A DNA stretch of 64,000 nt from Heterodontus francisci (lineage: Eukaryota): positions 108,334,407-108,398,406 of the forward strand of contig NC_090377.1 in assembly GCF_036365525.1 (NCBI RefSeq), given 5' to 3'. Shown one piece after another: positions 1 through 57,119 of the stretch. Position 1 is the stretch's first letter, and the number at the start of each line of letters is the position of its first letter. A program made the translations under genes and the position numbers. The notes under the pieces were generated by a model that made no database searches, was not told the origin of the DNA, and worked only from the letters and a program-made list of their open reading frames with translations.

Positions 1-370
1 CAGCCCAAACCTGAACACATTTTTCACCATTTAATTTCTGTACAGTGAATTAAGTATGTTGTATCAATGTTTCTATGGTTCTTCTCCTTGGTGACAGTCA
101 GTTTTTTGAAATAATTCTGTTTGAAATAATTCTATTGGCATTGCTAAGTGTTGTAATCAAGTGTGGTGACAGGTTGCTGCTGTTCATTGGGATTTGCAGG
201 ATGGATGTAGCATTGCTGCTCTATTGTGCTCAGTTATACGCTGACCTTGCAGCCACAAATAACATTTCCGACTGGCTGTCCCTGCTGTCTTACTGGCACT
301 CATATAGTCCTTTCAGGTGACTGGCTAAGTTGGCCAGATGTGATGCCAGTGTGAGAGAGCTACCTCATTA
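1..370 (+). repeat. Diverged paralogous copy of 55125-55162 plus 56628-56945 (segmental duplication marker)
   Basis: Shared ordered anchors: ccatttaatttctgtac, cttctccttggtgacagtcag, aagtgtggt.acaggttgctgctgtt, tgcagccaca, ttactggcactca, caggtgactggctaagttggc. Confidence 0.85.
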
Positions 371-377
371 TCATAAT

Positions 378-1596
378 TAGGTCCAACCTGATCAACCTTT
401 CCTCATAAGACAACCCCTTCATACCAGGAATTAACCTAATGAATCTTCTCTAAACTGCCTCCAATGCACGTTTATCCCTCTTAAAATAAGCCGACCAAAA
501 CTGTACCTACTACTCTAGGGTGTGAAATTTATGCTGGTGGTGAGGTCTCGACGTTGGGGGAAACTAACGATGAGATCCCCATGATGCCTCTTTTCCGAAA
601 GGCCCACCGAATTTAGTGCCAATCAGGCACTTAAGTGAACAGCGGTAGACCTTCCATAGGATTTAGGACCCCGTTGCCGGAAGTCCCGGCCTTGCAGAGC
701 TGCCAGCAAATCAGAGGCCAGCATTTGCAGCGACACCGCAGAGGCAGTGGGTGTTTCTGTGCTGACAAGCGTCGCTGGACCCAGGCCTCAGGTAAGTCAG
801 GGTGGGAGGGGTCTTGCAGGGTGGGGGGTGGTGGTCACAGGGGAGAGGGGTCGGTAGCAAGGGAAGAGTGGGTGGCCCTCAAGGCACCCCATCCACTCCC
901 CCTTCCTGATGCTGGGTCCCTTGTTCAGGCACTAAGTGCCTTTGAATGAGGGATCGCTCACCCCTAACCCGGAGCCGGGAAGCAGTCTGCATAGTTTTTC
1001 CTACCGTTCTTCCCGTGCAGTGACAGGGCCGCCTGCTGCACTGGTAATTGCAGCTGCAGCAGAAAGATGTCCTTAATTGTACATTAATTGCCCAGTTAAG
1101 GGCGTCGATTGGCAGCAGGGCGGGAAGGCCGTTCACAGGCTTAATACTTTCAGCGGACACAGAATGGTGGCAGCAACCCCTCCCACAACCCCCACCCCCA
1201 ACCATCATCCCACCTGATTTTATACTCTCTCCGCCTTCAACCCTGCTGCAGGGGGGAGCATAAAATTCCACCTAGGTGTGGCCTCAACAATACCCTGTAC
1301 AGTTGTCGCAAGACTTCCTTACTTTTATGCATCACCTTCTTTGAAACAAAGGCCAAAATTCCATTTTCCTTCCTAATTACTTGCTGTAACCACATGCTAA
1401 CTTTTTGTGATTCATGTACAAGGACACCCAGGTCCCTCCGTACTACTGCATTCTGCAATCTCTCTCCACTTAAGTAATATTTTGCTGCTCTATTCTTCCT
1501 ACCAAAGTAGACAACCTCACATTTTCCCACATTATCTTCCATTTGCCAAAATCTTGCCTACTCACTTCCCTTTCCATATCCCTTTGCAGACTCTTT
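378..1596 (-). mobile_element. CR1 LINE RT fragment, interrupted by the MITE at 519-1272 and continuing at 17388 after the Harbinger insertion
   Basis: Minus-strand ORF NVGKCEVVYFGRKNRAAKYYLSGERLQNAVVRRDLGVLVHES, typical of CR1 ORF2. Confidence 0.85.
519..1272. mobile_element. Harbinger-type MITE
   Basis: TIRs ggtgtgaaatttatgct / agcataaaattccacc and 3-bp TSD TAG. Removing it restores the CR1 sequence tactctag-gtgtggcctc. Confidence 0.75.
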
Positions 1597-1856
1597 GGGC
1601 TGAATTTTGTGCAGACCTTGAGGACAGGAACAGAGACGGGGGAGGGGGGATGGTGGATAAAATGAGACAGGAGACGTCGGATGTCCCATCCTGATTTTAT
1701 CAATGACAGCAAAGATGGAGGGTGGAGATCAGATGGTGACATGCCAGGCAGGCAATTAAAGTATTTAAGAGGTCTATTGACTGAGATTTTATTTATAATA
1801 TTAAATTTTATAAATGGTGCATGGGATTCACGAGGCTTCAGAACCTTACCTGGACC

Positions 1857-5470: not shown

Positions 5471-5879
5471 TTCAATGAGGTGATATGAAGGCAGGAGCTC
5501 ATTGCTGGTGGCAAGCTAGGGGAGGCCATTGGGAGAGATAGCATTCACTGCCAGGCAGGTGGAGACAGGAGAGCATCAGGAATCATCTGAGGACATTGGG
5601 GTGGACTGGGGGAGAGAGTTGTTGCCAATGGTCCCAGAACTGCAGAGATGCCATTCCAGAGGTGACAACTGGGGGGGAAAGAGGGTCCCTGTTGGCAGTG
5701 AAGGCCTTGTGCTTGGGCAGAGGCCACCTATCGTGGGCTTCATTCATCCAGGTTTTGGGGACCATGTTGAAGGGAGGAGCAGCAGAGCGAGAAGGAGGTC
5801 CAGGCACCTCCAGCAGCATCTCAACATTCTGTGAGGTCATAGGAGGGTTAGCAGTGGCCTCCAGACGATAGAGAAGGTT

Positions 5880-6900
5880 GCAGAGGGGAAAGAAATGTGT
5901 CTCCTGCACGCAGAGGTAGGTACCCTCCAGAGTGGGTCTACCAGTCAAGGCTCAATTACCTGCAGATTTCAGAGAGGAAGTGCCAACGACGACTCTGCCT
6001 CTTCTGGGAGGCTATCATTGACCTATGTGCATTGATGCAGGATGAGCTGAGCCCCAGGGGACTTGGTGGAAATTCCAGTGCCAGTGGCACTGAAGCTCAC
6101 CGTGGTGCTGACCCTTCTATGCCTCTGGATCATTCCAGATTCACTGAGGACAAGTGCGGCCCATCGGTGCATCAGGGAGGTCACCATTGCCCTTTTCAGG
6201 AGGGCCGGCAAATATGTGCCCTTCCATACAGATCCAAACTCTCAAGCTGAGAGGGTAATCAGGTTTGGGGCCATTGCTGGATTCCCCCAGGTACAGGGTG
6301 TCATCAACTGCACAAATGAGGCCATCAAGGCTCCTGATCACCAGCCAGTGGCCTTCATCAACAGGAAGGGCTTCCACTCCCTCAATGTACAACTTGTCTG
6401 TGACCACCATCAGTGGATCCTGCAGATCTGTGCACGCTTCCCGGGAAGTTGCCATGATGCTGACATTTTAAGGCAGTCCCAAGTGTCAGAGGTTTTCTGG
6501 CCTTCAGGGATGGAGTCAAGAGCAACCCACTGAGGCCATGGTTACTGACACCTGTGAGGAAACCATGCACAGATGCAGAGGAGAGGTACAACTCCTGCCA
6601 CGGGACAACGCAGGCCATTGGTCTGCTGAAGATGAGAGTCATGTTCCTAGATCGGTCCGGTGGAGCCCTAATGTATGCCCCGGAAAGGCTCTCACATATT
6701 GTGATGGTCTGCTGTGGACTGCACAACCTGGTGCCGCAGAGGGGTAAAGCTCGAACAATGAGGAATGCGAGGAATGCGATGCCTCCTCAGATGATGAGGA
6801 TGCAGAGGAGGAAGCTGACCAAGCATCACCAGATGAAAGATCCGCAGGACAACGGGAGTGTTACCATGAGATATATGCAAGGCAGGCTTGCCCTTATATA
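5880..6900 (+). pseudogene. Harbinger (HARBI1-like DDE) transposase remnant
   Basis: GFPQVQGVINCT, NRKGFHSLNVQLVCD, FPGSCHDA and IGLLKMR motifs. Frameshifted, and the first catalytic Asp reads Asn. Confidence 0.85.
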
Positions 6901-7143
6901 CATTCGCGTTTCCCGTGATCTTTACTGTAGTATATTGTAATGTAGAGTTGTTACTGGGCAGAATATGTAAATAGACTGTAAGCATCTTTACAGGAAGTGA
7001 TGTAATAGAATCTGTGCAGAACCTCATAAAGCATGTAAATGGAACCCATAGTTGCAAGATGTCTGTAAATCAACTCCTGTTCCTATAACTGTCAGATTCT
7101 TAGAAATTCTGTAATAAGCTCTAATAGTTATCAGAATATGATA

Positions 7144-7156
7144 TGGTGGCAGCGGT
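7144..7156 (+). other. Primer-binding site complementary to the 3' end of tRNA-Leu
   Basis: TGGTGGCAGCGGT directly after the 5' LTR, complementary to the ...ACCGCTGCCACCA end of vertebrate tRNA-Leu(AAG/TAG) as recalled. Confidence 0.7.
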
Positions 7157-8228
7157 AAATGGAAGATGGAAGAATCATTGCCCTGAATGGAGAAATTTGA
7201 AAAAGTAGCTGGACATAACCAAGCCAAGCCATGCCAAACTGGGTCTCGAGGTTTGCAAGGTATCGTACTGCATCAGGTCTCGTGCAGAATCCAGACAAGG
7301 AGCTGGTTGAAACATCATTGTATGCAGTGGGGGAGTGTGCAGACGAATCCTCATTACTCAAGGCATATATGAAGAGAAGGCTACATATAAAGAAGTCATT
7401 AAGGCACTCGAGATTTACTTTAATGTAAGGAAAAATGTCATTATGAGCACATCAAATTTAATAAGCATGCCCAGCAGAAACGGGAGAGCATTGATTTGTT
7501 TATCAATGATTTATATAAACTCACTGAAGATTGCAAATACGGCAGTTTATGGGAAGCACTGATTAGAGACAGGATTGTGATCAGTGTAGTGGGCGACACC
7601 CTTTCGGATCATCTACAGTCGAGGGATGATCTTATGTTAATGAAAGTGATTCAGTTGACCAGGCAAGCAGAGGTTAGAAAACTTAACCAATTCATTGTCC
7701 AAGGGTACAGGGAGAGTCCGATCTCAAAGTAGCAGACTCCATTGAATAAGTAAAGAAAGCGAAAGCAAGAAACAACAGTCAAAGACAGGAAAGGCGTGAA
7801 AAGCATCTAGAGGCAGCAGCAACTAATTGCAGTAGGTGTGGCCGAGAGAGGCACTGGCGGGAAAATTTCCCAGCCAGAGAAGCGGAATGTTTCCTGGATA
7901 AAAAGCGGGGACACTTTCAAACAGTATGTCGCAGTAAAAAAACAGTGTTGCAAATTATAAAGTGGAAATCCAAAGAAAATAAAGAAAAGGTTAATGAAGT
8001 ACACGGTGTACAAAGTGTTGAAATACCTTTTCTAGGGGAAATCCAAGCAACAAGTGAGAATTGCTGGACAGCAGCAGTTTTAGTATTATCAGACACAGAA
8101 CCGTGGCTGAAGAAGAAAGTCTCAAGCCAATAGGTAAAAGATTATATGGGTCTGCAGGCATCGAGTTGAAGATACTAGGAGAGTTAAAAACAATTCTGAG
8201 TTAAGGAAAAGAAATCCCTGAGACCTCA

Positions 8229-8983
8229 GGCAAGATTTTAAGAGATCTGTGGCGAGCTCAGAAAATGCGACTCACACGCTGAAGAGCCGCCGTGATCTCC
8301 CACGTGGAGGCCCACCCCCCCCAATCACATGGAGGGGCAGACTGTCCATTGCCAGGAATGGCATCAGCTGCTTGTGCGCAGGCGCTGGGGAGGTTTTTAA
8401 AGGGCAGCCAGCCCTGCCGGCATATTTGAATAAAGTGAAACCCCCAAAATTTACAAAATAAAATTGTAATGCTCTTTTCCAACCCTCCCAATAAAAATTA
8501 CATTGGGTATTTTCCCTTCTCCCCCAAAACACTTCCCTTTGAATTCTGACCTTCCCCGCTCCTCCCCCAGACCGTACAAAGTTGAAAGTACACCCCTTCT
8601 CACCATCCCCTACACTCATTATGTTTATTTGACCCTGCTCCCACTCCATCTGCACTGAAAATCTTAACTCCTTCCCATCCCCACCAGTGTCACGCCTGTT
8701 TTCCCCAAAAAGGGAAGTGAAGGCGTGGGAGTGCTGGCCACCACACTGAGAATCGTGTCGGGTTGGAAACGTTGCGGGTAAGTTGATTTAAATTTATTCA
8801 TCTCCTTAATTAAAATATTGAAATTCTGTTCCCGTCTCCCATTGACAGGGGGGCCGCCACAGAGCCTCGGTGCCGCTGGGAAGATCAGCGAGGCCCTCCC
8901 GGCACAGCTTCCATGGAGGAACCATCTTCTGGCCTGCCCCCTCCACGGAACCCGACGTCAGGGACTCAGTAAAATCCGGCCCC
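8229..8983. mobile_element. Harbinger-type MITE inserted in the Gypsy protease region
   Basis: Ends ggcaagatttt / aaaatccggcccc with a GC-rich interior. The Gypsy frame resumes after it (LYII). Confidence 0.65.
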
Positions 8984-9290
8984 TTATACATAATCTATAA
9001 TCAGAATTGTTCACTCCTAAGTAGAAAAGCTTCCATAGACCTACAGCTAATATATAGAGTAGAAGAGCTCAAATGTACAGAAGAGCAGCCTAGAGATTTT
9101 AGGGATGAATTTCCAAAATTATTCAGAGGATTGGGGAAGCTGAAAATGGCATGCCACATCACTCTGAGAATACAAGCAGAGCCAGTGTGTTTGTTCACAC
9201 CCAGGAAAATTCCACATCCATTCCTAGAGAAAGTTAAAATTGAAATCGAGTTAATGAGAAAACAGGGAGTCATTTCACCTGTAACAAACA

Positions 9291-10357
9291 GCGGTTCAAG
9301 AAGGCAGCTCACCACCTTCTCAAGGGCAATTAGGGATGGTCATGGGAACATCGGTACATAAGTAGGCCATTCAGCGCATCGAACCTGCTCCTCTATTCAA
9401 TACAATCATGGCTGATCATCCACTTCAATGCCTTTTTCCAACACTATCCCCATATCCCCTTATGTCATTTGCATTGAGAAATCAGTTAATGTCTGCTTTA
9501 AACATATTCAATGACTGAGCTTCCATAGCCCTCTGGGGTAGAGAATTACAAAGATTCACAACCCTCAGGGTAAAGAAATTTCTTCTCATCTCGGTCCTAA
9601 GTGGCTTCCCCCTTATTTTGAAATTGTGTCCCCTGGTTCTAGACACCCCAACGAGGGGAAACATCTTACCTGCATCTATCCTGTCTATCCCTTAAAGTAT
9701 TTTGCAGGTTTCAATGAGATCACCTCACATTCCTCAAAACTCTGGAGAATACAGGGCATGTTTCCCCAACCTCTCTTCACAGGACAGTCCTGCCATCTCA
9801 GGAACAAGTCTGGTGAACCTTTGTTGCACTCCCTCTATGGCAATAATATCCTTCCTAACGTAAGGAGACCAAAACTGCACAAAGTACACCAGGTGCACTC
9901 AAACCAAGGTTCGATACAACTGAAGCAAGACTTTGCTACTCCTGTACTCATATCATCTTGCAATAAAGGCTAACATACCACTAGCCTTCCTGATTGCTTG
10001 CTGCACCTGCATGTTAGCTTTCAGTGACTTATTCACAATGACACCTAGGTCAATTTGTACATCTACACTTTCTAATCTCTTCCCATTTAAGAAACACTCT
10101 GCACATCTATTCCACCTACCAAAGTCATTAACCTCACATTTTTGAACATTATATTCCATCTGCCACATTCTTGCCCACTCACTAAGTCTATCCAAATCCC
10201 CTTGAGGCGGCTTTGCATCTTTCTCACAACACACATTCCCATCTAGTTTTGTGCCATTCATGAACTTGGAAATATGACATTTGGTCCCCACTAACCAGCA
10301 ATAAATACTGGCATTGCCAGCGATGCACACATCTCCCAAACAAATGAAAAAAACATA
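9291..10357. mobile_element. LINE 3'-tail fragment (+) split by a CR1 3' fragment (-, about 9345-10290), nested in the Gypsy RT
   Basis: The tail caagggcaattagggatgg...gcaataaatactggcattgccagcgatg flanks minus-strand CR1 ORFs (EMRRNFFTLRVVNLCNSLP; KCEV). Confidence 0.8.
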
Positions 10358-11641
10358 CAGGATGGTGCTCAGGTATGGTTCCAGTGAAGAAACCTAATGG
10401 GTCCATTCGAATGTGTGTAGGCCTCACACAACTGAATAAGACAGTGGAAAGAGAAATACATCCAATGTCATCAGTAGATGAGAATTTGGCAAAGCTAAGG
10501 AAAAGCACAATTTTCACCAAATTAGATGCTAACAGCAGATTTCGACAAATACCATTGGATGAGGAATCTGAACCTTTATAACACCATTTGGAAGATTTTG
10601 TTTCAACAGATTACCATTTGGAATTACATCAGCACCAGAGATCTTTCAACGGACGCGTTAAGAATTCTGCTAGGATTAGATGGGATCATCAGCCACATGG
10701 ATGACGTGTTAATCCATGGTGCCGATCAGCAGGAATAGGATATGAGAGTGAGAGCAGTACTACAGAGATTGGAAGAAACATGTCTCACACTGAATGAGAA
10801 ATGTGCTTTTTCACAGCACAGTAAGATTTCTCAGACACATTATTGATGTGTCCGATATTAGAGCAGATCCACAAAAGACAGAGGCAATAAGGACTTTCCA
10901 GAGTCTAAAAATGTTACAGAGCTTCAAAGGTTTATTAGAATGGTGAATCAAGTAGGGAAATTTCTATCGAATTTAACCATGATCAATGAGCCATTGCATC
11001 AGTTGTTCCAAATCAACAGTGTGGGAAAGAAGCTCAACAAGAATCCTTTGAGAAAATCATGAACATGCTCGTATTTTCAGAACTGTTAGCACATTATGAC
11101 CCAAAGTTATCAACCATTACAGCGGTGGATGCGTCATCAATGGGATTAGGTGCAGTCTTATTTCAAGTGCAGAGAGATGGGAGACGCAGACCTGTATAAT
11201 TTGCTTCTTGTTCATTAACAGAAAGGGAACAAGATACAGAATCATTATAAAGGAAACATTGGCAGCAATGTGGGCAGGTTAGAAGTTTTCAGAATATGTC
11301 CTAGGTCTTCAATTCAAAATTGAATAAGATCATAAACCATTACTCTATTAAACACAAAGGAGCTTGCAAAGTTACCTCCAAGACTACAGAGGTTAAGATT
11401 AAGATTGATGAGATTTGACACAAAAACTGAATACGTTCCAGGAAAACAACAGTTCACAACAGACTCTTTATCACGTATTTCAGCAGCAAGACCAGAAGAA
11501 GGAGATATTTTGCTTCTTGAAGAAGTAGAAGTTTTTGCTTTGACGACAACAACAACTTTACCTGTTACAGATGAAGTATGTGCAGCAATCAAGGAATATT
11601 GCTCACATGGATGACCAGTGTACATGCCACATAACATTTTA

Positions 11642-11999
11642 GGGCGGCACAGTGGCGCAGTGGTTAGCACTGCAGCCTCACAGCTCCAGGGACCCGGGTT
11701 CGATTCTGGGTACTGCCTGTGTGGAGTTTGCAAGTTCTCCCTGTGTCTGCGTGGGTTTTCTTCGGGTGCTCCGGTTTCCTCCCACAAGCCAAAAAAACTT
11801 GCAGGTTGATAGGTAAATTGGCCATTATAAATTGTCACGAGTAGAGGTAGGTGGTAGGGAAATATAGGGACAGGTGGGGATGTTTGTTAGGAATATGGGA
11901 TTAGTGTAGGATTAGTATAAATGGGTGGTTGATGGTCGGCACAGACTCGGTGGGCCGAAGGGCCTGTTTCAGTGCTGTATCTCTAATCTAAAATCTAAT
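11642..11999 (+). mobile_element. HE1-like tRNA-derived V-SINE
   Basis: gggcggcacagtggcgcagtggttagcac (A box), ggttcgattc (B box), V-domain, CR1-type tail, (tctaaa)n end, and TSD CATAAC at 11630-11635 / 12000-12005. Confidence 0.9.
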
Positions 12000-14900
12000 C
12001 ATAACCCGGTTCTAAGGCAGTATCATGAACAGAGGGGTCATCTAAGCATTGTTGATGATCTATTGATCTATGATGAAAAATTAGTTAGGGAAGGAATTGA
12101 GATTAGAGATCATGGAGAGATTACACCAAGGACATTTGGAAATAACAATGTGTAGAGCCAGGGCAAGACAGTCTGTATGACAGCCTGGTATACTGAAAGA
12201 AATTGAAGAGATGATAGCGAGGTGTATCGCGAGTGCTATCAATCGTCATAAGACGAAAGAACCACTTCAGATTGGTTTAGTCCCATGCGAATTGTTAATG
12301 GGAAGAAGGATGAAGACTCAACTTCCTACATTCCTAGGAACACTCAAACCACAAGTGAGTGCAGGAGACTTGAAAAAGTGAGGGAGAGGATAGAGAAAGA
12401 TCTATTCAGAGAATTAGGACAGATGTCACAGAAAAGAGAAACTTGTCAGACATTCAACCTGAGAATCAGTTTGGGTTAGACACCAAAATCTGGCTGGAGA
12501 AGTGATAGAACAATCACCATATCCAAGATTGTACATTGTCCCTATTGACCAAGGGATGGTAAGAAGAAACAGAAGGTCATTGGTGGTGATACCTAAGAAG
12601 CATCAATTACAAGAGGATACATCATGTCAAAAGTTTGATAAACAAATGATGCTGCAATCAGACATCAATCCAGACAACAAACTGAATGAAGGACTTGAGT
12701 GATCCAGTAATTCCACCGAAGCACAGCAGAGTAAGAAGGAGGAAATAGATGACTCAAAACTTCAAACCCTTTCGAAAGAAAGAAGAATGCATTATTGCAC
12801 ACTTCCAAAAACACAACAGCAGTTAACAATCTGAAAAATATAGGGTTGTTATTGGGCTGGATATGTAAATAGACTGTAAGAGTTATCACAGTAAGTGATG
12901 CAATAGAATCTGTACAGAACCTCTTGTAGTGCATAAGTGGATGCCAGAGATGCAATGCATGTGTAACTAAATTCCTGTTCCTGTAACTGTCAGACTCTTA
13001 GATATTTTGTACTAAGCCTCAAAAGTTATCCAAATATTAACACTTATTGCCAGCTATATGTTGACCAATAAAGACTTACCTTTATGCAAACCTGTTGTCA
13101 CCTTCCTTCCTTCAGGAGACATTTGCTCTGTGCCCAGGTGCACAGCTCTGAGCTGGAAAGGCTCCAGACTGGAGCCCTCGCAACATGATGCTTTGCCTTG
13201 AGCCTCTTCACAGAGGTTGGGTTGATACGAAATGCCAAAGGCCTTATGGAAGAGGAAGGAGATATTGCTGATTTAAAAAAAAATCTTTCCATCTGCAACA
13301 CACCATCACCTGTGAAAACCCCATGCTTCTAGGTGCTCTTCTTCATTCTTCTGTGTACACGCCTATGAGGTGTTCCTCCTGCACTGTCAGCTGAGGTGGA
13401 GGCAGGCTGCTGACCTTTGCTCGGGGTGACCTTGGCTGTCATCCTCTGTATGCCTTAGCCCTGGTGGGCCCTGGCATGCTGGGGGCCTCCTGCACAGAAG
13501 CAGTAGCACCCTCTGTTGTCAGGGATGATGGAGGCTCTGACAGAGGGGTAGAGGAACTGCTGGCCACACCAGGAGCACTTTGAGAGGAGTCCCCAGCAGC
13601 GGTGGGCAGCACCTCCTCCTCCCTTGGATGGATAATGTGTGTCTCCCTGCTGACCTGAGAGGGTAAAGGACCTGGTGGTTACTCCAGGTCCCTTGCCCCC
13701 TCTTGTCCTGCCACTGCTGCCTTCCACCCATGGTCAAGACAAGGGTATGCAGGTCTGCACAAATGTCCCTCAGACACTGAGTGCTCTGCTGGATGTGGCT
13801 GCCCATCACAGCTGCCAATTTCTCAGTGGAGGGTGCCACGTTCACCAGTCAGAGATATTGCTGAGCTCAAGGCCTGGATAGACTCTTCCATTGGGCACGC
13901 ATAGCCTCTGGCATCTCTGCCAGATGCTGCCTGACCTCTCACTGTAACTGCAGCATTTCCTGTGAAGATGACAATACCTGAGGTATGTCATGAGCCTGGG
14001 GCTGAGCACAGGCCTGGCCTCCACATTCCTCTGACCGTCAGAGACCTGGGGTGACACAGCCTCTGTCAGCTGCTCAGGTGCATGTGTGCTTTGTCCACCA
14101 GGTTGCCAGCCTGAATCTAACCGGGAGCGTATTCCCACTGACGTGAGAGTATCTGCGCTGGTGGACAATGCAGGGGTTTGAGGTGATGATGGAGCTTCTG
14201 AGGTCCGTCCTCCCTCTCAGAGCTGGCAGGTTCTCCCACAGTCTCAGAGGCTCTTCCAGTAGGCACCGCATGACTGCATGAGAGAACAGAGGCATTGAAA
14301 GGTCAAGGGCCTCCCCTCCCGACATCGCACACACCCCTTTGTTGGAGATCCCTGTAGGCACCGGATGCCTGATGAACAGCATGAATCCATAGATTACAGA
14401 TGCACCCTTCCGCCCCATGATGACCTTGCTCATAGTCCTGGGAAGGTGCCCCTTCTCTCTGTCTGTAACACTTCCATCCTGTGGTCCAGTTGTAGCGGAT
14501 TATAACCCTTGACATTTTTGAGACCACCCCGGATCAGGCAGACTCCCCAGATGAGCACTCTCACTTAAGGTTGAGAAAGATGGATCCCACGGTCACTTGA
14601 ATGAGTCTGAAGAACTGATCTAACTCTCCCCAAAGGAAAGGAACCAGCTGAGAATATTACTCTCCTCCAGATAGCCTTTTAACAAGTTTGAGCCAGATTA
14701 TAACAACTCGGCTATTATAAGGGTCTGGGCATCTCTTCTCAATAAAGTACCTCCCCACTGAAGAGCGTACGGAGATGGGTTCTCGAGTTTCAGATACAGA
14801 AGACTATGTGAGACAATATATTTTCTATATTATATAAAAATGTATTAAAGAACTGAACATGCAACTCACATTTGATGGGAAAGTCAATCGCAATGCCAAT

Positions 14901-18395: not shown

Positions 18396-19394
18396 GATTA
18401 CAGAAAATGGTTACACACTTAAAAGTTTGAGAAAGAAGAAGAGAAAAGGAAGTAATAATAAAAAAACAACAACAGCTTACGTCGCTCCCAGCAAGTAAAT
18501 ATCTAGCTCAAATATGTTAATAACCAGTAGTCATACAATCACCCGAAGTGGCCAGCTTCTGTCGATTGTAGGTTCTCCTTCCAGTGATCAGCGGTTTCAC
18601 TCTCCATGAGACCTCAATCACCCGAAGTGGCCAGCTTCTGTTGATTGTAGGTTCTTTTCCCAATGATCAGCTGGATTCCCTCACCATGAGATGTCCTTCT
18701 GACAATTCACTAAAGTCTCCTTCCTTTGACTTCAGTGCTGCTTCCTCGCAATTGCAGCCAAGATCTCCAATTTGTTCAACCTTTTATACCCTTTTCAGGG
18801 GCTGGGGTTAGTTTACTACATTGACGGGCCACAACATCCTATGAAGCTTCTTTTAAAAGCACAATACCCTATTTTATTCTGCACCCTTTGTTTAAACTGT
18901 GATTTGAACCTGCTCAGAAAGCTCTCCATCTCTCTTTCGTATTCTCCATTAATTTTTCACTATGTGAAACCCCTTGTAATCAGTCTTCCAGGAAAAGATG
19001 TTTGTGTTTGACTCGAACAGCACCATGGGTTTACCTACACCACATGGACTGCAGTGATTCAAGAAGGAGGCTCACTATCACCTTCTCAAGAGTAATTTGG
19101 GATGGGTAATAAATGCTGGCCTTGCCAGCGATGCTCACAACCAAGAATCAATTAAAAATAAGGTTTCCTCAAAGTTGTTTGTGATAGATCTCCTACATGG
19201 ACAATTGCTGGTAAATGAATTGCAGGATGTTTCCCCTTTTCATCTCCATACTTCAATAAAATTCTTGCTTGCTTCTGACTGAAGCTTCCAGCAGTCACTC
19301 TGAGCCTCATTGCAGATGCGAATGGCAAGTAAAATGGAGAAAGATCAGACATTTCCAGGCCCATAAAACAGACTGTATTAAGCTTCAATGACTC

Positions 19395-22300: not shown

Positions 22301-24401
22301 TGGATATCATGACAACATCTGCAATGCCTAACCCACACATATTTGTGTTCTCTCTTGCAGGTTGACGTCTGTAGGAGACTCAATCCAAAGGGGGACAGCT
22401 GTCAATCTCTGAGGATGATCAGTCAGAGGATGCACCATTCCATGACTTTCCTGCACCTTCCACCAGTGCAGATACTTTCGCCTCGGTGGGTTTGCGCTCA
22501 ACTTTATGCTCAGGGCCACAAGCTGGTCAAAGCACAGCACAGGGCCCAAGCAGCTGGCTGAGACTGAGACAGCCAAGGCCGCCAACAGTCAGAGGACTGG
22601 GGGTGACCAGGTCCATGCTGAGCCTCAGGCTGATAACGAGACTCTGGTATCAATAGCACAGGACATGCTGGAGTTGAGAGAGAGGCGAGGCAACATCTGG
22701 TGGAAATGCCAGAGGCCATGCACAGGCATGAGCGGAAGGTGGAGGAATCCATCCGTGGCGTGATTGCTGCCAATGTCTCAGGCATGTGAGCGCATGTCTT
22801 CATCCATTGAGAGGTTGGCGACCCTCTTGGAGTGCCAGATTGCAGAGAGGTGTGCAGACCTGCACACCATTACCTTGGCTATGAGCTCAATGCAGCAGTG
22901 GCAAGGCAAGCAAAGGATGAGACACCTGGAGGACAAGCTTCTCCAGCTCGTGTCCTTTTCTTGCGAGCAGGGTATTTCAAGAGAACCTTAAAAGGGAGGA
23001 GGAGAGGCTGACCTTCACATCTGGGGGCTTCCCTCAGGCCACTTTGAGCGTTGACAGTGTCTCCTCAGCCCCTCCGTCAGTGAGCCTAGCTCCTGAAGCC
23101 ATGAGTCATAGAGTCAGAGAGTTATACAGCACAGAAACAGGCCCTTCAGCCCATGACCCCTGAGGAGAGTCCTGCACCTGTGCAGGAAACCCTCAGGCAG
23201 ATAGGGTCTTCCAGACCTCAGACAGCTAGAGGACAGCCGCTGAAGTCATCCCAGGCCAAGGGGCAGCCTGATTAGCAGCCTGCCTCCAGCCTAGCTGCTA
23301 TCACAGGGGTCAACCAACTCCTGCACCCAAAAATGTGTAAAAAGCCCCACCTCAACACATTTGGATTTTCACGGGTGCTTGCAATTTACAATTTGTTTTC
23401 TACTGTTAGGTTTATTTGCTTTTAATATTAACATTCATTGTGGAAAATGTTGATTCTTTCATGCCTTATTTATGAGATGCTGACTTCACCCTTCTCCCAT
23501 ATCGGGTTGCCAGTCTCGGCTCAGCCTTGCTTTGCGAAGCACTTCTGATGTACCAGAGCACATGTGTGATCTGGGTGCTAATCACGGAACACTAATAGAA
23601 TGGAAGCAACAGACTGAAAGCTTTTAGGTAAGTTTTTATTGCTTTCACTCTGAGAGGCATGCATAGTGGCTGGAGCCAGTAAGTATGAGACTGTCTCTTG
23701 CCTCCTGGCCCTCTCTTTGTGGAAGCCACTGCCACACACCCAGGACTTCGCAAAGACAGGATGTATGAAACCCAAGCTAGGTGATCAGTAGGCCTCCAGA
23801 GCACTGTCCTTGCAGAGACAAAGTTGCCCTGGCATCTTTTCCTTTGCTACTCCTCTCAGCTTCTGCACTGATGGCCCTCAGTGCCCACTCTTACTGATAG
23901 CCAAGCCTCTCACCTGATAGTATGACCACCTGTGCCAACCACCCAAGACCAAGCCCACCCATACCGAACACCTGAGACCAAGCACACACATGCAGAGTGC
24001 TCAACACTGCAGGCCGACCATGGCCTCTGCTCACCCCTCTTCCTCTATCTAATACAGTTCAAGGCTGCCATCCTATCTTAACACAGACGCCTTGCCGTGG
24101 TGCTGCCAGTTTTCAATGGCTGGAAATCCGAAGACCTGTATGGGCTGCCCGTCGTCAGCTTAATTCCAAGCCCTCCATTGAATTGTGATCAATTGCATGT
24201 AAATGCATATAAAACTGTTCAGTAATTCAAATGGCAGTCCCATTGCATCAGGGCTGTGACACTGCCTTGGTGCTTTCCCACCGCTGACTAAATCCAGAAC
24301 AGGCGTCACAATGTCGAATTTCCGGACAGACACATCCATCGCTATTCACTGGTCCCCAACACCCCTCATGCTACTCCAAATGGCCGCATTAAATTCCACC
24401 C
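19395..24401 (-). mobile_element. Second decayed Harbinger element (Myb/SANT ORF on +, transposase mostly deleted), interrupted by a CR1
   Basis: Myb/SANT remnant APQFSDASLEILL...VFFPKDG...WMEIVEEVSS at 19719-19950. Segment 22360-23340 is homologous to the reverse complement of 13300-14200 and 63000-63900. TIR-like end gcattaaattccaccc at 24401; left end approximate. Confidence 0.65.
20030..21910 (-). mobile_element. CR1 LINE
   Basis: KSPGHDG, NYRPVSLTS, KGKSCLANL and GVPQGS motifs on the - strand. Confidence 0.9.
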
Positions 24402-25057
24402 AGAGAGGCAGAATTTCTGCACCATTCCTGAGTTACTCAGTGAGTTGATTTCACTGCAGTGGTCCAAAGTAAGCTACCTTAAGACTCTTGAAGACAGCGA
24501 TGTGGAAAGGCAGAGGAGTTTTGGGAGGGAATTCCAGAGGGTGGGCTCTGGGTGGCTGAAGGAACTGCTGGCAATGATGCGGTGAAGGGAGGGGGGGCAT
24601 GAGGGATAGAGCTAGGGTGTTGACTACAGCTGACAAACAGCTGTCAGGATAATGGAGAATTATGGAGCTTGATACAAGGATGGAAATCAGAGCTTTAATC
24701 ATGTTGTTGCTACATACTGACACATCCAGTGACCTAACAGTGACCAGTAAGTTCCATTTCTCTGAGTTCATTTATTTAATTTGAAAATTCACCACTAATT
24801 TATTCCATTGCAGTTCATCATAATTAATATGCAATCTTACCAAAATAATTTACAGCCTCGATTATATAGATTATGAAACAGGAATGACCCACATCACTCC
24901 TTACAAAACAAATTGCAACACCTAATGATACTCTGGAACACGTAGTCAAAAATTGCTGAGAGTTTGGAGGAAATGAAGGGAGAGGAGGCAGTGCACTGAT
25001 TGTGGTCGATTACATCACGGTTCCATAATGTGTGCTACTGTTTTGTGTGGTCTGAAG

Positions 25058-25065
25058 TATATAAA
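25058..25065 (+). promoter_or_regulatory. TATA box of the SPP2-like gene
   Basis: TATATAAA about 80 nt upstream of the signal-peptide ATG at 25140, in non-repetitive sequence. Confidence 0.7.
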
Positions 25066-25139: not shown

Positions 25140-25191
25140 ATGAAAATCATTCTCTTCATCTTTGCTGCAGTCCAGATCCTCTACTGTTCTG
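25140..25191 (+). CDS. SPP2: SPP2-like secreted cystatin-fold protein, exon 1 (signal peptide)
   Basis: ATG AAA ATC ATT CTC TTC ATC TTT GCT GCA GTC CAG ATC CTC TAC TGT TCT G encodes MKIILFIFAAVQILYCS(G), a classic signal peptide. A phase-1 GC donor (G|gcaagt) joins in frame to the ttcag|GA acceptor at 25314/25315. Confidence 0.8.
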
Positions 25192-25314
25192 GCAAGTATT
25201 GAAGTATAGAATGATTTTGTTGTATGATTTGTTGTTCTGATCATCCTGTACTAACCCAAATGTTCATTTGTCAAAAATGTATTCATCCTTAAACCACTCT
25301 GATTTTTGATTCAG

Positions 25315-30045: not shown

Positions 30046-30359
30046 TGATTGGAGCTTCCATCTCCATTGACTGTAAGAGACAAAATGCCAAATTCATGGA
30101 CAGAGTTTCAGTACCATTCCTACCTTACTGTGTTAATGGCCTTTCCCATATCAGTCTAAACTAAGTTCCTTTAAAACTCTTGATGACAATAACTTGCATT
30201 GATTATAACACCTTTAACATAGAAAATTGACTGAAGGAACTTCACAGATGCATGAGGAAAATGGATGATGAACTGAAAAGGAGGTATTGCAAGTGGTCAA
30301 CAAAAACCCTACTAACCAGTGGGGTTTTAAAGAAGACAGGGAAATGGAGAGGCAGTGCA

Positions 30360-30690
30360 ATTCAGGGAGGGAATTCCAGAGAGTGGGATCTGAGTAACTG
30401 AAGGAACTGCTGCCAGTGATTGGTAAAGATGAGAGGCAATTCCAGTTTACAGCTGACAAATAGCTATCAGGATTCTGGACAATTTTTGAGCTTGATACCA
30501 GGATGGGATGTTATTGCTACATACTGAAACATCCGGTGACATAAAAGTGACCAATAAGTTCCATTTCTCTGAGTTCATTTATTTAATTTGAAAATTCACC
30601 ATTGCTTTATTCCATTTTGGTTCATCATAACTAATTTACAAGGTTACTAAAATAAATTAGAACTTAGATTGTATTGATTATTGATTACAA
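30360..30690 (+). repeat. Intronic copy of the gene's upstream region 24520-24880
   Basis: Collinear similarity including a 47-nt exact match (24748-24794 = 30555-30601). Confidence 0.9.
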
Positions 30691-31570: not shown

Positions 31571-31572
31571 TA

Positions 31573-34283: not shown

Positions 34284-34406
34284 GTTACTAATTTAGGAGA
34301 ACGTCAGTTCCGGGTGAATTTAATTATTGATGTCCAGGAAACTATGTGTCGCAAAGATTCTGGAATCGATCCGGCAAATTGTACACTGCTAACTAGCCCA
34401 GATGCT
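34284..34406 (+). CDS. SPP2: SPP2-like gene exon 3 (cystatin domain, first disulfide)
   Basis: ttggttag|...|gtgagt, 123 nt, phase 0-0: [41 protein letters not shown]. ETxCRKDSGxDPAxC matches spp24 ETTCRKDSGEDPATC. Confidence 0.9.
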
Positions 34407-45480: not shown

Positions 45481-46215
45481 TATGGCTGTATGGTGTGAGA
45501 GTAAGGGGAGAGGTACACAGTTTATGGTGTGACAGTAAGGGGAGGGGTACAAAGTCTATGGTGTGACAGCAAGGGGAAGGGTACACATCATCAGAACCTA
45601 AGATCATAAGAAATAGGAGCAGAAGTAGGCCATACGGCCCATTGAGCCTGCTCTGCCATTTAATATGATCATAGCTGATCTTTGGCTTCAACTGCACATT
45701 CGCGTCCACTCCCCATATCCCTATCCCAGCCTTAAATATATTCAACGATGTTACATCCGCTACCCTCTCAAGCAGAGAATTCCAAAGATTCACATCCCTT
45801 TGAGTGAAGAAATTTCTCCTCATCTCAGTCCGAAATGATTCCCCCCTTATCCTGTGACTGTGCCCCCATATTTTAGATTTCCTAGCTGGTGGAAACAAAT
45901 CTTAGTGTCTCTCCTGTTCAGTGCCTTTAGAATCTTGTAAATTTCAATGAGATCACCTGTTATTCTTCTAAACTCCAGCGAATTTAGGCCTAATTAACTC
46001 AGCCTCTCATCATCTCATCAAAACACTGTACAATTGTAGCAAGACATCTTTATTCGTGTACTCCAACCCCCTTTCAATAAAGAGGTATACAGTCTATGGT
46101 GAGACAGTAAGGGGAGGAGTACATAGTCCATGCTATGATAGTAAGAGAAGTGGGCTCACTGTCTATGGTTTGGCAGTAAGGGTAAAGGGTTCAATCTCTT
46201 TGGTGTGAGAAACAG
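45481..46215 (+). repeat. 34-bp minisatellite split by a CR1 fragment (-, about 45595-46080)
   Basis: Unit tatggtgtgacagtaaggggaggggtacacagtc, about 3 copies at 45489-45587 and about 4 degenerate copies at 46083-46215. Confidence 0.8.
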
Positions 46216-46753: not shown

Positions 46754-47887
46754 GAAATTGCTACTTGCATGAGTTGGGTCATGCTTGACGGGGACATGGT
46801 CACGAGTGTTGAAATAGAATGCAGGAACATAACCTTGGGAACGACAGCACCAACATCATCGACTCCAGCACCAACATCATTGACCCCCGCACCAACATCA
46901 TCGACCCCGGCACCAACATCATCGACTCCAGCACCAACATCATCGACTCCAGCACCAACATCATCGACCCCCGCACCAACATCATCGACCCCGGCACCAA
47001 CATCATCGACTCCAGCACCAACATCATCGACTCCAGCACCAACATCATTGACCCCCGCACCAACATCATCGACCCCGGCACCAACATCATCGACTCCAGC
47101 ACCAACATCATCGACTCCAGCACCAACATCATCGACCCCCGCACCAACATCATCGACCCCGGCACCAACATCATCGACCCCGGCACCAACATCATCGACT
47201 CCAGCACCAACATCATCGACTCCAGCACCAACATCATCGACTCCAGCACTGACATCATCGACTCTAACATCATCGATAACTCCAACACAAAGATCATCGA
47301 CTCCAACATCAACATCAGCATCGTCGACTCCAGCACCGACATCATCGATAACTCCAACACTAACATTATCAACAACTGCAACACCAACATCAACACAAAC
47401 ACAAACATCAACACCAACACCAACATCAACACAAACATCAACACCAACACCAACACAAACATCAACTGCAACACCAACATCAACACAAACATCAACACCA
47501 ACACCAACATCAACTGCAACACCAACATCAACACAAACATCAACACCAACACCAACATCAACACAAACATCAACACCAACACCAACATCAACTGCAACAC
47601 CAACATCAACACAAACATCAACACCAACACCAACATCAACACAAACATCAACACCAACACCAACACCAACATCAACTGCAACACCAACATCAACTGCAAC
47701 ACCAACATCAACACAAACATCAACACCAACACCAACATCAACTGCAACACCAACATCAACACAAATGTCAACACCAACACCAACAACAAGAACAACAAAA
47801 AAGAAATTACCACCGTTGTCATCGTCATCAGAAAGCAGTGAATCATCATCAGAAAGCAACGAATCATCAGGACGATGCAGTTGGAAG
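46754..47887 (+). CDS. SPP2: SPP2-like gene exon 4: second cystatin disulfide loop, mucin-like PTS repeats and S-x-E serine cluster
   Basis: ctgtag|GAA...AAG|gtaaat, 1134 nt open in phase 0: [31 protein letters not shown]-(APTSSTP)19-...-([14 protein letters not shown])[31 protein letters not shown]. The C-x17-C loop has the spp24 spacing. Confidence 0.85.
46847..47245 (+). repeat. Coding minisatellite, 19 x 21 nt (APTSSTP) with 84-nt and 168-nt higher-order structure
   Basis: GCACCAACATCATCGAC(T/C)CC(A/C/G) units. Variants cycle every 4 units, and the TTG variant recurs at units 2 and 10. Confidence 0.95.
47375..47785 (+). repeat. Coding Thr-rich tandem repeat (mixed 24/18-nt units: [16 protein letters not shown])
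   Basis: ACACCAACATCAACACAAACATCA and ACACCAACATCAACTGCA units, all in frame. Confidence 0.9.
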
Positions 47888-50319: not shown

Positions 50320-50604
50320 AGATACGGCAGAAGGGGATGGTATAGGCATTGCAGGAAGAAGCATGGTTCAAGAAGAGGAGGAAGATGGTGGAGGCGTCGT
50401 TGGGGCCGAAGATGGAACAACAGACGACGATGGAATTACAACAGGTACAACATGTACAAGAGAGGAATATATGGCTTTCGTTCTGGAGGGGGATCTACAC
50501 TTACAAATCACCAAGACAGAACATACATGCGAGTTAGGAGCAGGAGTAGGCCACTCGGCCCTTCGAGCCTGCTCTGCCATTCAATTAGTTCAGGGCTAAA
50601 CTGA
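50320..50604 (+). CDS. SPP2-like gene exon 5: Arg/Trp/Gly-rich cationic C-terminal peptide (3' boundary uncertain: stop at 50602-50604 or donor after 50444)
   Basis: Acceptor ttaatttag|AGA in phase 0 matches the exon 4 donor. Open frame RYGRRGWYRHCRKKHGSRRGGRWWRRRWGRRWNNRRRWNYNRYNMYKRGIYGFRSGGGSTLTNHQDRTYMRVRSRSRPLGPSSLLCHSISSGLN*. Absent from the ORF track because it has no 5' start codon. Confidence 0.7.
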   Translation, partial: RYGRRGWYRHCRKKHGSRRGGRWWRRRWGRRWNNRRRWNYNRYNMYKRGIYGFRSGGGSTLTNHQDRTYMRVRSRSRPLGPSSLLCHSISSGLN

Positions 50605-50660
50605 TTACTCCACATTTCCACCTGCCCCCGATAACCTTTCACCCCCTTGCTTATCAGAAG
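50530..50660 (-). mobile_element. CR1 3'-tail fragment overlapping the read-through end of exon 5
   Basis: aggagcaggagtaggccactcggcccttcgagcctgctctgccattcaat...ccccgataacctttcaccccc, near-identical to 20040-20165. Confidence 0.85.
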
Positions 50661-51920: not shown

Positions 51921-51929
51921 TGGCACAAA

Positions 51930-53411: not shown

Positions 53412-53970
53412 AGTTTAAGAAAACTGAAGAGTGGATGGAGATAACAAGCAAACGTGAAAAACAGGGAGAAAATTCCAGATGGCTTAAAGAGTTTAATTTT
53501 AAAACATTATGTTTCACACTTAGTTAGAAGTAGGTTACAGTTTAATTGTTAGTATGTTAGAATATAGTTTATTACACTGGTGTTCTTGATATCATTACTA
53601 CTCAGAAATATGCCAATTAACTAAATCATGTGATATATTCCATACCAGATGTCAATGTGAAATCAGACAATAAACAGAATATTAATAATTGTATCACTGT
53701 GGCTCTTTCACTTTTGTAAAACAATATGAGAGGAACTCATATTATTGTATCTATTGCCTTATACGGTAAAACTGTTCACAATCTGACTTCTTAACTGCTT
53801 TGTCCTGTTCTAATTAAACTCTAATTACCACAACCATTTTGGTTAGGCTGGCTCTGAATGTCTTACAAGGCCATTAATCAAATACACTACAAGTAAAAGA
53901 TCAGAGGCGCAGAAAGTCAAATCGGCAGAAAAACAGCATGAAAACAATAAACTCTTCATTAACTCCTGAT
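53412..53970 (+). other. Candidate terminal / 3'UTR exon of the SPP2-like gene
   Basis: Acceptor ttttgctgatttaattacag| at 53411, followed by AT-rich unique sequence with AATAAA at 53669 and 53946. Reads A-GTT-TAA in phase 2 (fits the AACAG|gtacaa donor at 50444) or SLRKLKSGWR* in phase 0. Confidence 0.4.
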
Positions 53971-55162
53971 AACACTGAAGCTGAAGAAGTGTGTTTAACA
54001 TAAACTGATACATGAGGCTTAATCTGTTCCTGTGAAGGTTCCAGATGTATCTATTACAGATTTTGGAACTGCTTTAGATATTCTCTTCGATTAGCATCAT
54101 CAATGCCTCTCATAAGCAGACGTATGACCCTTGGAATCAGGAATTAACTTTTGCTATCCAAGATCTAGATATGTAACATGGGATGTGTAACAGTAAAATC
54201 CTCTGGTTCATATGAATTTAACAAATGATCCTTGTACATGAGAGTTCCTGTGCTGCTCTTTTCTTCCAAAAGGGAAATGGGTTACCACTTTAGTGAGATG
54301 AAGCCAGATAAAAGAATTATTAAGCTGCTTTGTTTTATATTCAATACATTTAATCTTACTTTAACTCATATCATTTTCTCCTTCTCCTGAAGAACTATCT
54401 CTGTAACTCTCTGGTCAGACCAAAGTATTCTCCGAACTTAGTTGTCGCCCTTCTTTATGTTGATAGACGGAGGCCCTTACAGCTTCCTTTGGCAGATTTT
54501 TTTCCAAGAGACCTGTAAGACTGGATGCTTGTTCCTTTTGTGTTCTCTCTGGACAGGAATTTGGCAGTTCGTCGCCTTACTCTTCCCCTAACCTTGCGTT
54601 GCCAGTTGAACTGGTCATTATCCAGCTACCACCTTCTCGAGTGGATTTCTACCTGATAATCTCATGCTGTTTGCACAAGCACATGTTTTCTCACATCATC
54701 TCATGTATGCATATTACAGGAAGCATTGAAAATTAAATCAGAGGCTCCTTACTGTCCCTGATTGTTATGGAAAGCAGTTTCAATAGAAGATTCATTATTA
54801 TACAAATGCTTTCCTTGTGTCAAAAATTCCTTTGGGGATTCCAATGGAATTCCTAAATCTGGATGAGAAAGAGGAAGGAAACATGGGTGAAGATGGATTA
54901 CATCACAGAAGGGTTGCCTAGCAGTCGCTAAGTGACAAAACATTTACTTAAGAGAGAATTCTGAGCTCTCCACCAACAGTCCTGTTTTATTATTTACAAT
55001 CATATCATGATCAACATGGGCCATCCATTACCATCTGCTGCACCTTGACTATAATACATCACCATGCACCTGTTGATTACTATACTAATGTGCCTCGCCA
55101 AAGGAACAGTTGAGCTGAGACTTGAAGAAATTTTTACCATTTAATTTCTGTACCAGTACATT

Positions 55163-56627
55163 GAGGACTGGAGGAGAGCTAACGTTGTACCATTGCTTAA
55201 AAATGGAGAAAGGGATAGACCAAGTAATTACAGGCCAGTCAGCCTAACCTCAATGGCGGGAAAATTATTGGGAAAAATTCTGAGGGACAGGATAAATCCT
55301 TACTTAGAAAAACAAAGATTAATCAAAGATAATCAACAGAGATTTGTTAAAGGAAAGTCATGTCTGACTAACATGATTGTATTTTTCGAAGAGGTAACAA
55401 GGATGGTCGATGAGGCTAGTGCATTTGATGTAGTCTATATGGATGTTAGCAAGGCTTTTGATAAGGTCCCACATGGCAGACTGTTCATGAAAGTAAAAGC
55501 CATGGGATCCAAGGGAAAGTGGCAAGTTGGATCCAAGATTGTCCCAGAGGCAGGAAGCAAATGATAATGATTGATGGACATTTATGTGACTGGAAGCTAT
55601 TTCCTGTGGATTTCCGCAAGGCTCAACAGCAGATCGTATGCTTTTTGTGGCGTATATCAATGATTTGGACTTGAATTAGGGGTATGATGAAGAAGTTTGC
55701 AGATGATACAAGAATTGGCTGTGTGATTGATAATGAAGAATAAAGCTGTAGAGTGCAGGAACGTATCAATGGACTAGTCAGTTGGGTGGACCAGTTGTGA
55801 ATGGAGTTCAATCAGGAGAAGTGTGAGGTAATGCATTTTTGGGAGGCTAATAAGGTAAGGAAATGCACAATAAATGGTAGGATGCTAAGAGGTATAAATA
55901 TACGTTGTTGTTGTTGATACACTAAGAAGTGTAGAGGAATAGAGGGACCTTGGAGAGTGTGCCCACAGATCCCTGAAGGTGGCTGGACAGTTCAATAAAG
56001 TCATCAAGAAGGTAAATGGGATACTTGCCTTTATTATCCGAGGCATAGGATATAAGAGCAGAGAGATTATGCTGGAACTGTATAAAACACTGGTTAGGCC
56101 ACAGCTGAAGTACTGTGTGCAGTTCTGGTCACCGCACTGGGAAGATGTGATTGCACTGGAGAGGGTAGAGAGGAGATTTATGAGGATGCTGCCTGGACTG
56201 GAGAATTTTAGCAATGAGGAAAGATTGGATGGGAGGGGGCTGTTTTCTTTGGAACAGAGGAGGCTGAGGGGAGACCTAATTGAAGTGTGTAAAACTATGA
56301 GGGGTCTGGAGAGAGTGGATAGGAAGGCTCAATTTCCCTTGGTTAAGGAGTCCATAACCACGGTGCATCGATTTAAGTTAAGAGGATGGTGGTTTCGAGG
56401 GGATTTGAGGGGAAATGTTTTCATCAAGAAGGTGGTGGGGATCTGGACCTCACTGCCTGAAAGGGTGGTTAGAGGCAGAAACCCTAATAGCATTTAAAAA
56501 GTAATTGGATATGCAATTAGCCTACAAGAGCTGGGAAGTGGAATTAGGGTGGATGGCTACTTGCCAGCTGGTGAGGACACATCGGCCAAATGGTCTCCTC
56601 TGTGCTGTAAATTTCTATGATTCTATG
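55163..56627 (+). mobile_element. CR1 LINE inserted into the duplicated block
   Basis: NYRPVSLTS, KAFDKVPH and YCVQFWSP; ttctatgattctatga tail. Absent from the paralogous copy at 1-370. Confidence 0.9.
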
Positions 56628-57119
56628 AGTATGTGACATCAATGTTTTGCACTATGATACTTCTCCTTGGTGACAGTCAGTGGGGTGGACCTTTGTGAAA
56701 TCATTCTGTTGGTCTTTTGAAGTACAGCCTAGGTGTTATGAATAAGTGTGGTAACAGGTTGCTGCTGTTAATTGGGATTCACGTGATGGATGCACCATTG
56801 TGCTCAGTTCTAAGATGACCCTGCAGCCACAGATAGTGTTTCCGACTGACTTCCTGCTGCCTTACTGGCACTCACATCGTCCTTCCAGGTGACTGGCTAA
56901 GTTGGCTCGATGTGATGCCAGCTTCAGGGAGCTGCCTCATTAATAACCAGGAAATAGGGGTCCTACTGGGCACATTGACATCTATGCTGATTGCCTGTTT
57001 GGTGTCATAAAATCAAAGAAAGTTTACGCCACAGAGAGAGGCCATAAAATGACAAATTGGTCAAACTTCGAGAGGATAAAACGCTTGCTTGAATGGATTG
57101 CATCCACATATACTAAAAG

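What the first reader, a model, noticed from the sequence alone, without database searches (positions are those of the whole stretch)
1..56945. About 55-kb periodicity: the window looks like one unit of a tandem gene cluster
Seen: non-TE sequence at 1-370 is a diverged, same-strand, collinear copy of 55125-55162 plus 56628-56945; the second copy was later split by a CR1. That copy lies just 3' of the SPP2-like gene. Inference: a paralog probably ends immediately upstream of this window, and another may follow downstream. SPP2 is generally single-copy in mammals, whereas tandem expansion with variable C-terminal peptides is the pattern seen in cathelicidin clusters.
Basis: partly seen in the sequence, partly recalled or inferred. 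Interest (0 to 1): 0.72.

Follow-up and report, generated by a model that had tools for sequence, protein, structure and literature searches.

The report
Shark spp2-like gene in known cluster
A short duplicated stretch on either side of a shark or ray mineralisation-family gene (spp2-like) fits a tandem gene cluster already described in these fishes, so it is mostly ordinary, although the gene's strongly positively charged tail deserves a test as an antimicrobial peptide.

Summary
The duplicated block is real. Window 2-376 matches 55113-55162 plus 56628-56946 on the same strand (297/351 aligned bases, E 5e-61), and the second copy is split by a CR1. It is non-coding and has two copies in the window. 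It is not a 55-kb periodicity: it is the only non-transposon collinear match, and no second set of exons lies in the window.

The gene (25140-50604, five coding exons, open frame of 572 aa) is an elasmobranch spp2.Like (L2-type) gene. It encodes a signal peptide, an Spp-24 cystatin domain, a 325-aa Thr/Ser/Pro repeat, a serine stretch and an Arg/Trp-rich tail. Tandem expansion of spp2 in sharks and rays, including multi-copy spp2.Like, is published (PMC13188829, 2026). An upstream paralog is therefore likely but unproven: the flanks were unavailable, and a second duplicated block in intron 2 carries no exons.

The cathelicidin analogy fails as family membership: five exons, Spp-24 profile preferred, tail not much more variable than the domain, and relatives expressed in denticle and dental-lamina samples. 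An antimicrobial role for the conserved tail remains an untested and unpublished possibility.

The parts
2..376 (+). Non-coding duplicated block, copy 1 (uninterrupted; may run off the window's left edge); putative 3' flank of an upstream paralog
55113..55162 (+). Duplicated block, copy 2, left part
55163..56627 (+). 5'-truncated CR1-type LINE splitting copy 2; TGAG at both junctions
   Evidence: RT-like ORFs, matches to other LINE copies, junctions; family name recalled
56628..56946 (+). Duplicated block, copy 2, right part
24442..24874 (+). Second duplicated non-coding block, copy 1, 270-700 bp upstream of the start codon
   Evidence: 322/391 identical to 30281-30681
30281..30681 (+). Second duplicated block, copy 2, inside intron 2, with no exon remnants beside it
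25060..25065 (+). TATA-like box 80 bp upstream of the ATG (inferred)
   Evidence: sequence
25140..25191 (+). spp2.Like exon 1, signal peptide (by homology); GC donor
   Evidence: 15/17 identical to P0001 and P0017
25315..25439 (+). Exon 2, cystatin helix and first strand, with the extra Cys21/Cys55 pair
34284..34406 (+). Exon 3, Spp-24 cystatin-like domain core (Cys81, Cys92)
   Evidence: Pfam PF07448 E 7.1e-7, above cut-off
46754..47887 (+). Exon 4: end of cystatin domain (Cys105, Cys123), 325-aa Thr/Ser/Pro repeat (21-nt and 18/30-nt units), serine/SxE stretch
50320..50604 (+). Exon 5: Arg/Trp/Gly-rich tail (first 42 aa: 17 Arg, 6 Trp, net +19); the last ~28 codons and the stop come from an antisense LINE 3' end (50515-50659); true 3' end not verified

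Best explanation
The window lies in the spp2 tandem cluster of a shark or ray and holds one intact spp2.Like (L2-type) gene. An old tandem duplication copied a gene with its 3' flank. Transposon insertions and deletions have since erased almost all shared flank except a 370-bp block, and a LINE later split the downstream copy. The block at 1-376 is thus most likely the 3' flank of a diverged spp2.Like paralog or pseudogene ending a few kb left of the window; 55 kb is one gene-to-gene spacing, not a period. The protein most likely works as a secreted matrix protein of denticle and tooth tissue: a cystatin-fold domain, an O-glycosylated spacer, a phosphorylatable serine stretch that binds calcium phosphate, and a basic tail that may be cut off. 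SHOWN: the block, the insertion order, the exon model with open frame, the family, the architecture shared with relatives. INFERRED: the upstream paralog, transcription, glycosylation, phosphorylation, cleavage and function.
For: Block same-strand, 85% of aligned columns, two copies in the window, no repeat hallmarks. All 15 named hits of the three protein searches are shark or ray proteins. Four of them are in the paper's spp2 list: LOC132817549, scyTo_0015785, scyTo_0014031, chiPu_0017431. Two match the catshark spp2.L probe sequences, read by eye (P0017, P0015). The paper describes spp2.L2 as having a PTST repeat between the cystatin domain and serine stretch plus an arginine-rich end. It reports 11 of 12 catshark spp2 genes in one locus and up to seven spp2.Like copies in the sevengill shark. 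Two full-length paralogs from one stingray have the same longest-contig length (197.9 Mb), consistent with one chromosome. Catshark spp2.L1-L3 peak in denticle and dental-lamina samples and are near zero in blood and liver.
Against: No flanking DNA could be fetched, so no paralog exon was seen. Homology stops at 376/56946 and does not resume. A second block of similar divergence (82%) was duplicated into intron 2 without exons, so a block copy need not mark a gene copy. Some spp2.Like genes lie outside the cluster (catshark L3 on chr9). Transposon pairs in the window span 73-87% under the same aligner, so the block's identity alone does not exclude a dispersed repeat. The paper could not detect spp2.Like by in situ hybridisation and calls their function hard to apprehend.
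Confidence: 0.62

Rival explanations
1. The block is a short local duplication, or the last remnant of a decayed copy, with no gene attached upstream, like the promoter-side block copied into intron 2. The gene may still belong to the cluster.
For: The 24442-24874 / 30281-30681 pair has similar divergence (82%, 11 gaps) and no exon remnants. The block is only 370 bp and homology does not resume.
Against: Copy 1 runs to the window edge, so it may be the end of a longer tract. Its position 3' of the gene and its orientation are what a whole-gene tandem duplication predicts. Multi-copy spp2.Like is common.
Confidence: 0.2
2. The block is a low- or medium-copy dispersed repeat or conserved non-coding element inserted twice by chance.
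For: At least 48% of the window is covered by self-matches, and 85% identity is within the range of transposon pairs here. Genome-wide copy number could not be checked.
Against: Only two copies in 64 kb; no ORF, inverted ends, tRNA-like gene or Rfam match.
Confidence: 0.13
3. The window is one unit of a regular array of about 55 kb.
For: A Harbinger transposon pair lies on the same strand at offsets of 55.6-55.8 kb, close to the block's offsets.
Against: That pair is 64% identical, no closer than either is to a third copy (66%, 63%); informative sites 71 vs 86 and 67. Its flanks differ. No other unique sequence matches.
Confidence: 0.05

Closest known systems
Elasmobranch spp2.Like clade, catshark spp2.L2 type (Debiais-Thibaud et al. 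2026, PMC13188829)
   Same: Signal peptide, cystatin-like domain, Pro/Thr/Ser repeat inserted before the serine stretch, arginine-rich end; multi-copy, mostly in one cluster. Domain 44-55% identical to four full-length relatives.
   Different: No exact match of exon 3 was found in the protein database (best 74%). The 325-aa repeat is longer than any whole relative retrieved except one of 356 aa, though the profile search stopped at 510 aa. The stop codon comes from a LINE fragment. The promoter-side block is duplicated in intron 2.
Mammalian/bony-fish SPP2 (Spp24)
   Same: Spp-24 domain with four cysteines, serine stretch, arginine-rich C-terminus that in mammals is proteolytically trimmed (PMC3753320).
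   Different: Single copy and liver-expressed; no mucin-like insert is described for it.
Cathelicidins
   Same: Cystatin-fold N-terminal domain and a cationic region encoded by the last coding exon; clustered genes. The Pfam Cathelicidin profile matches 12 of 16 relatives weakly. Cathelin domains are the best, though non-significant, PDB sequence matches (E 0.048-0.14).
   Different: Five coding exons rather than four. Spp-24 scores higher in 16 of 16 relatives and Cathelicidin passes its cut-off in 1 of 16. A mucin-like spacer and phosphoserine stretch lie between domain and tail. The tail is about as conserved as the domain.

Membership tests
SPP2 (Spp24) family | Spp-24 cystatin-like domain (PF07448) above the curated cut-off | tested here: met
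   Exon 3 alone scores 29.8 bits vs cut-off 26
SPP2 (Spp24) family | Signal peptide, four conserved cysteines, serine-rich stretch, Arg-rich C-terminus | tested here: met
   Cys81/92/105/123, 5 SxE motifs, tail net +27; signal peptide by homology only
SPP2 (Spp24) family | Cystatin fold | tested here: met
   Modelled on relative P0012, not the window protein: pLDDT above 90 over about residues 21-120; Foldseek best hits are cystatins, fetuin-B and cathelin domains
spp2.Like clade (L2 type) | PTST-type repeat between cystatin domain and serine stretch, with Arg-rich end | tested here: met
   325 aa, 38% Thr, 22% Ser, 22% Pro; description
spp2.Like clade (L2 type) | Phylogenetic placement in spp2.Like rather than spp2.1/2.2/2.3 | tested here: inconclusive
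   The tree had no spp2.1/2.2/2.3 rows and no supported set holding the window protein. By eye, exon 1 matches the catshark spp2.L1 probe at 50/52 nt against 40/52 for spp2.3s7, and the extra Cys pair is absent from the spp2.1 and spp2.3s7 probes
Elasmobranch spp2 tandem cluster | Neighbouring spp2 paralogs and synteny with nme9/vps8/sh3bp4/arl4c | not testable with these tools
   No eukaryote genome collection; no second exon set inside the window
Cathelicidin | Four exons, peptide on exon 4 directly after the cathelin domain (PMC3487008) | tested here: not met
   Five coding exons and a spacer of about 350 aa (definition)
Cathelicidin | Cathelin profile (PF00666) as best family | tested here: not met
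   No match for window exons 2, 3 or 4 taken singly; Spp-24 higher in 16 of 16 relatives
Cathelicidin | Conserved prodomain with heterogeneous C-terminal peptide | tested here: not met
   10 pairs among 5 proteins: domain 39-82%, tail 29-62%; tail higher in 3 of 10; the one within-species pair is 48% vs 44%. Small sample; the skate protein was left out because its tail start could not be anchored
Cathelicidin | Released peptide with antimicrobial activity | not testable with these tools
   Needs bench work

The most novel reading that the evidence does not exclude
spp2.Like genes are cathelicidin-like in function though SPP2 by descent. Skin and dental tissues secrete a mucin-like precursor whose last exon is cut off at the basic pair on the exon 4/5 junction. 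This releases a disulphide-looped Arg/Trp-rich host-defence peptide conserved in sharks and rays, and tandem duplication multiplied these genes.
Probability: 0.18. Interest if true: 0.68.

Novelty: new member of a known kind. Interest (0 to 1): 0.27.

Why it matters
As a cluster, it adds one more locus to an expansion published in 2026, so the gain is small. The useful residue is the gene model. Several database relatives are truncated or read exon 5 in the wrong frame, which hides an Arg/Trp tail conserved in sharks and rays. The paper leaves spp2.Like function open. The tail gives a cheap test between a mineral-matrix role and a host-defence role; a positive antimicrobial result would link SPP2 and cathelicidin function.

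Tried and rejected
1. Harbinger pair at offset ~55.6 kb as a second marker of the period: rejected; three-way identity shows independent copies.
2. Second exon set or exon remnants in the window: none by tblastn or by local DNA alignment of five promoter/exon/intron pieces against four regions on both strands (best 53, null maximum 43).
3. Block as coding exon or structured RNA: rejected.
4. A sixth exon at 54392 (good acceptor-like sequence): its reading frames resemble no relative's C-terminus by eye, and one of them gave no Pfam hit; left unresolved.
5. Tree of 17 cystatin domains: no supported placement, no outgroup.
6. PDB sequence search: nothing at E<0.001.
7. Protein atlas on the tail: no usable hit.
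8. Exact-sequence cluster look-up could not be made.
9. Two of the 8 hits (P0007, P0011) were unrelated repeat proteins and were dropped.
10. Literature: eight searches listed no paper proposing an antimicrobial role for shark spp2; only the top 2-25 titles of each were seen, and subscription journals are mostly missing.
Full report
OBSERVATION. Self-BLASTN of the window finds 9-43 matching 55120-55153 and 53-370 matching 56628-56942 (75% with gaps, E 5e-61), both on the + strand. Skipping the insert, 2-376 aligns to 55113-55162 + 56628-56946 with 297 of 351 columns identical; the score is 400 against at most 55 for 12 shuffled queries. The insert carries reverse-transcriptase-like frames and matches other LINE copies in the window; I call it CR1 from recall. 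TGAG lies at both junctions and copy 1 is uninterrupted, so the insertion is younger than the duplication. None of 11 indels is a multiple of three, and Rfam, tRNA and inverted-repeat tests are negative. A profile of the two copies finds no third in the window.

PERIODICITY. One block does not make a period. I tiled 50.6-63.8 kb in 44 pieces against 1-25 kb. Only the 2 tiles on the block give a clear non-transposon match; the other strong scores fall in LINE, SINE-like or Harbinger sequence, and some tiles score 38-53 against a null maximum of 37 from 15 shuffles. Over 544 shared columns of its second region, the two copies are 64% identical, against 66% and 63% to a third copy at 22.4-23.0 kb. 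They are also far more diverged than the block (71% vs 85% under one aligner). They are independent insertions. No second exon set exists in the window.

THE GENE. Five exons splice into an open frame of 572 aa: 25140-25191 (GC donor), 25315-25439, 34284-34406, 46754-47887 and 50320-50604. Exon 3 passes the Pfam Spp-24 cut-off. Exon 4 ends the cystatin domain, then encodes 325 aa of Thr/Ser/Pro repeats and a serine/SxE stretch. Exon 5 starts with 42 residues holding 17 Arg and 6 Trp (net +19). Its last ~28 codons and stop come from an antisense LINE end (50515-50659), so the true 3' end needs transcript data. The block's second copy starts 4.5 kb past the stop.

RELATIVES. All 15 named hits of the three protein searches are shark or ray proteins; the species was not determined, and no exact match to exon 3 appeared (best 74%). 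Five relatives are full length with the same architecture. The tail aligns to an epaulette-shark protein with score 145 (0 of 1000 shuffles reach it). It aligns to two stingray proteins (0 of 1000 each) and more weakly to a devil-ray and a skate protein (18 and 14 of 1000). Two further database proteins match exon 5 in the +1 frame, which I read as mis-predicted models. A model of the epaulette-shark protein gives a confident cystatin fold followed by a disordered region.

WHAT IS KNOWN. Debiais-Thibaud et al. 2026 (PMC13188829): I read the abstract, results sections 6-7, discussion section 10, the first part of the methods, and parts of supplementary files 11, 12, 18 and 20; figures and .fas alignments were not readable. 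They report 11 catshark spp2 genes in one locus plus one elsewhere, and four clades. spp2.Like has three copies in catshark and up to seven in the sevengill shark. spp2.L2 has a PTST repeat between cystatin domain and serine stretch and an arginine-rich end, which describes this gene. Four of my hits are in their sequence list, and two match their spp2.L probes by eye. Catshark spp2.L genes peak in denticle and dental-lamina samples (19-342 TPM) and stay at or below 2.3 TPM in blood and liver. The main text has 0 occurrences of 'cathelicidin' or 'antimicrobial'. In mammals the arginine-rich end of Spp24 is trimmed by proteolysis (PMC3753320, passages). A shark tooth preprint lists spp2 in a late-stage mineralisation cluster (10.1101/2025.08.26.672487, one passage).

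MECHANISM. Most likely an old whole-gene tandem duplication left the same 3' flank behind two neighbouring spp2.Like copies, and transposon turnover erased the rest (0.62). Against this stands a second block: 24442-24874, just upstream of exon 1, recurs at 30281-30681 in intron 2 at 82% with no exon remnants. A block copy therefore need not mark a gene copy (rival, 0.2). A dispersed repeat is not excluded (0.13), because no eukaryote genome could be searched. For the protein, a secreted matrix role in denticles and teeth is best supported, by family and by the expression of relatives; glycosylation, phosphorylation and cleavage are inferred.

CATHELICIDIN ANALOGY. As membership it fails. Cathelicidins have four exons and a heterogeneous peptide on a conserved prodomain (PMC3487008, passages). 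Here there are five coding exons. Spp-24 outscores Cathelicidin in 16 of 16 relatives, although 12 of 16 match it weakly and 1 passes its cut-off. Tail identity (29-62%) is not far below domain identity (39-82%) in 10 pairs. A phylogenomic survey treats Spp24 and cathelicidin as separate families and says the latter persisted in all vertebrates (PMC2784779, passages). As function it stays open. The tail is cationic and Trp-rich, and 4 of the 5 proteins compared have a basic pair after a cysteine at its start, with a second cysteine downstream. A review notes that shark antimicrobial peptides are little studied (PMC6795676, passages). A shark skin-mucus proteomics paper has no main-text mention of phosphoprotein or cathelicidin (PMC10707392, passages). 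I put this reading at 0.18.

VERDICT. New member of a known kind; interest 0.27. Unchecked: flanking DNA, genome-wide copy number, transcripts, and clade placement with outgroups.

Noticed in passing
window 24442-24874 and 30281-30681: The region just upstream of exon 1 is duplicated 5.8 kb downstream in intron 2 (82%), without exon remnants. It may be a partial duplication, or a sign that the gene is a fusion of two decayed neighbours.
   Followed up: partly
window 50515-50659: An antisense LINE 3' end supplies the last ~28 codons and the stop of the read-through exon 5 frame.
   Followed up: partly
window 25192-25193: Intron 1 has a GC donor (GC-AG intron).
   Followed up: no
window 46845-47797: Coding tandem repeat with two unit types (21 nt x 24; 18/30/48 nt), longer than in the retrieved relatives; likely length-polymorphic.
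   Followed up: partly
window about 6920-13040: Decayed LTR retrotransposon (two ~200-bp terminal repeats at 6939-7139 and 12837-13037, 78% identical; weak gag zinc-finger hit) nested in a Harbinger element and itself carrying insertions; 'Gypsy-like' is recalled.
   Followed up: partly
window 1598-1850, 5480-6920, 13040-14300; 22400-23000; 60800-64000: At least three diverged Harbinger-type transposon copies, 63-66% identical where all three overlap.
   Followed up: yes
window 54354-54740: Strong acceptor-like sequence at 54392 and ATTAAA at 54732 in unique DNA just upstream of the block; could be a non-coding last exon. No support found.
   Followed up: partly
proteins P0008, P0016 (and truncated P0001, P0003, P0005, P0015, P0017, P0018): Many database spp2.Like models stop before the tail or read exon 5 in the wrong frame, so the tail's distribution is under-reported.
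   Followed up: partly
PMC13188829 supplementary file 18 vs protein P0015: The probe labelled spp2.L2 translates, by eye, to P0015, which lies on a 198.8-Mb contig while spp2.L1 lies on a 289.5-Mb one. The probe may be the gene named spp2.L3 elsewhere in the paper.
   Followed up: no
window 18536-18691 and 45489-45587: Small tandem repeats (79 nt x 2; 34 nt x 3, with a further copy near 46081-46193).
   Followed up: no
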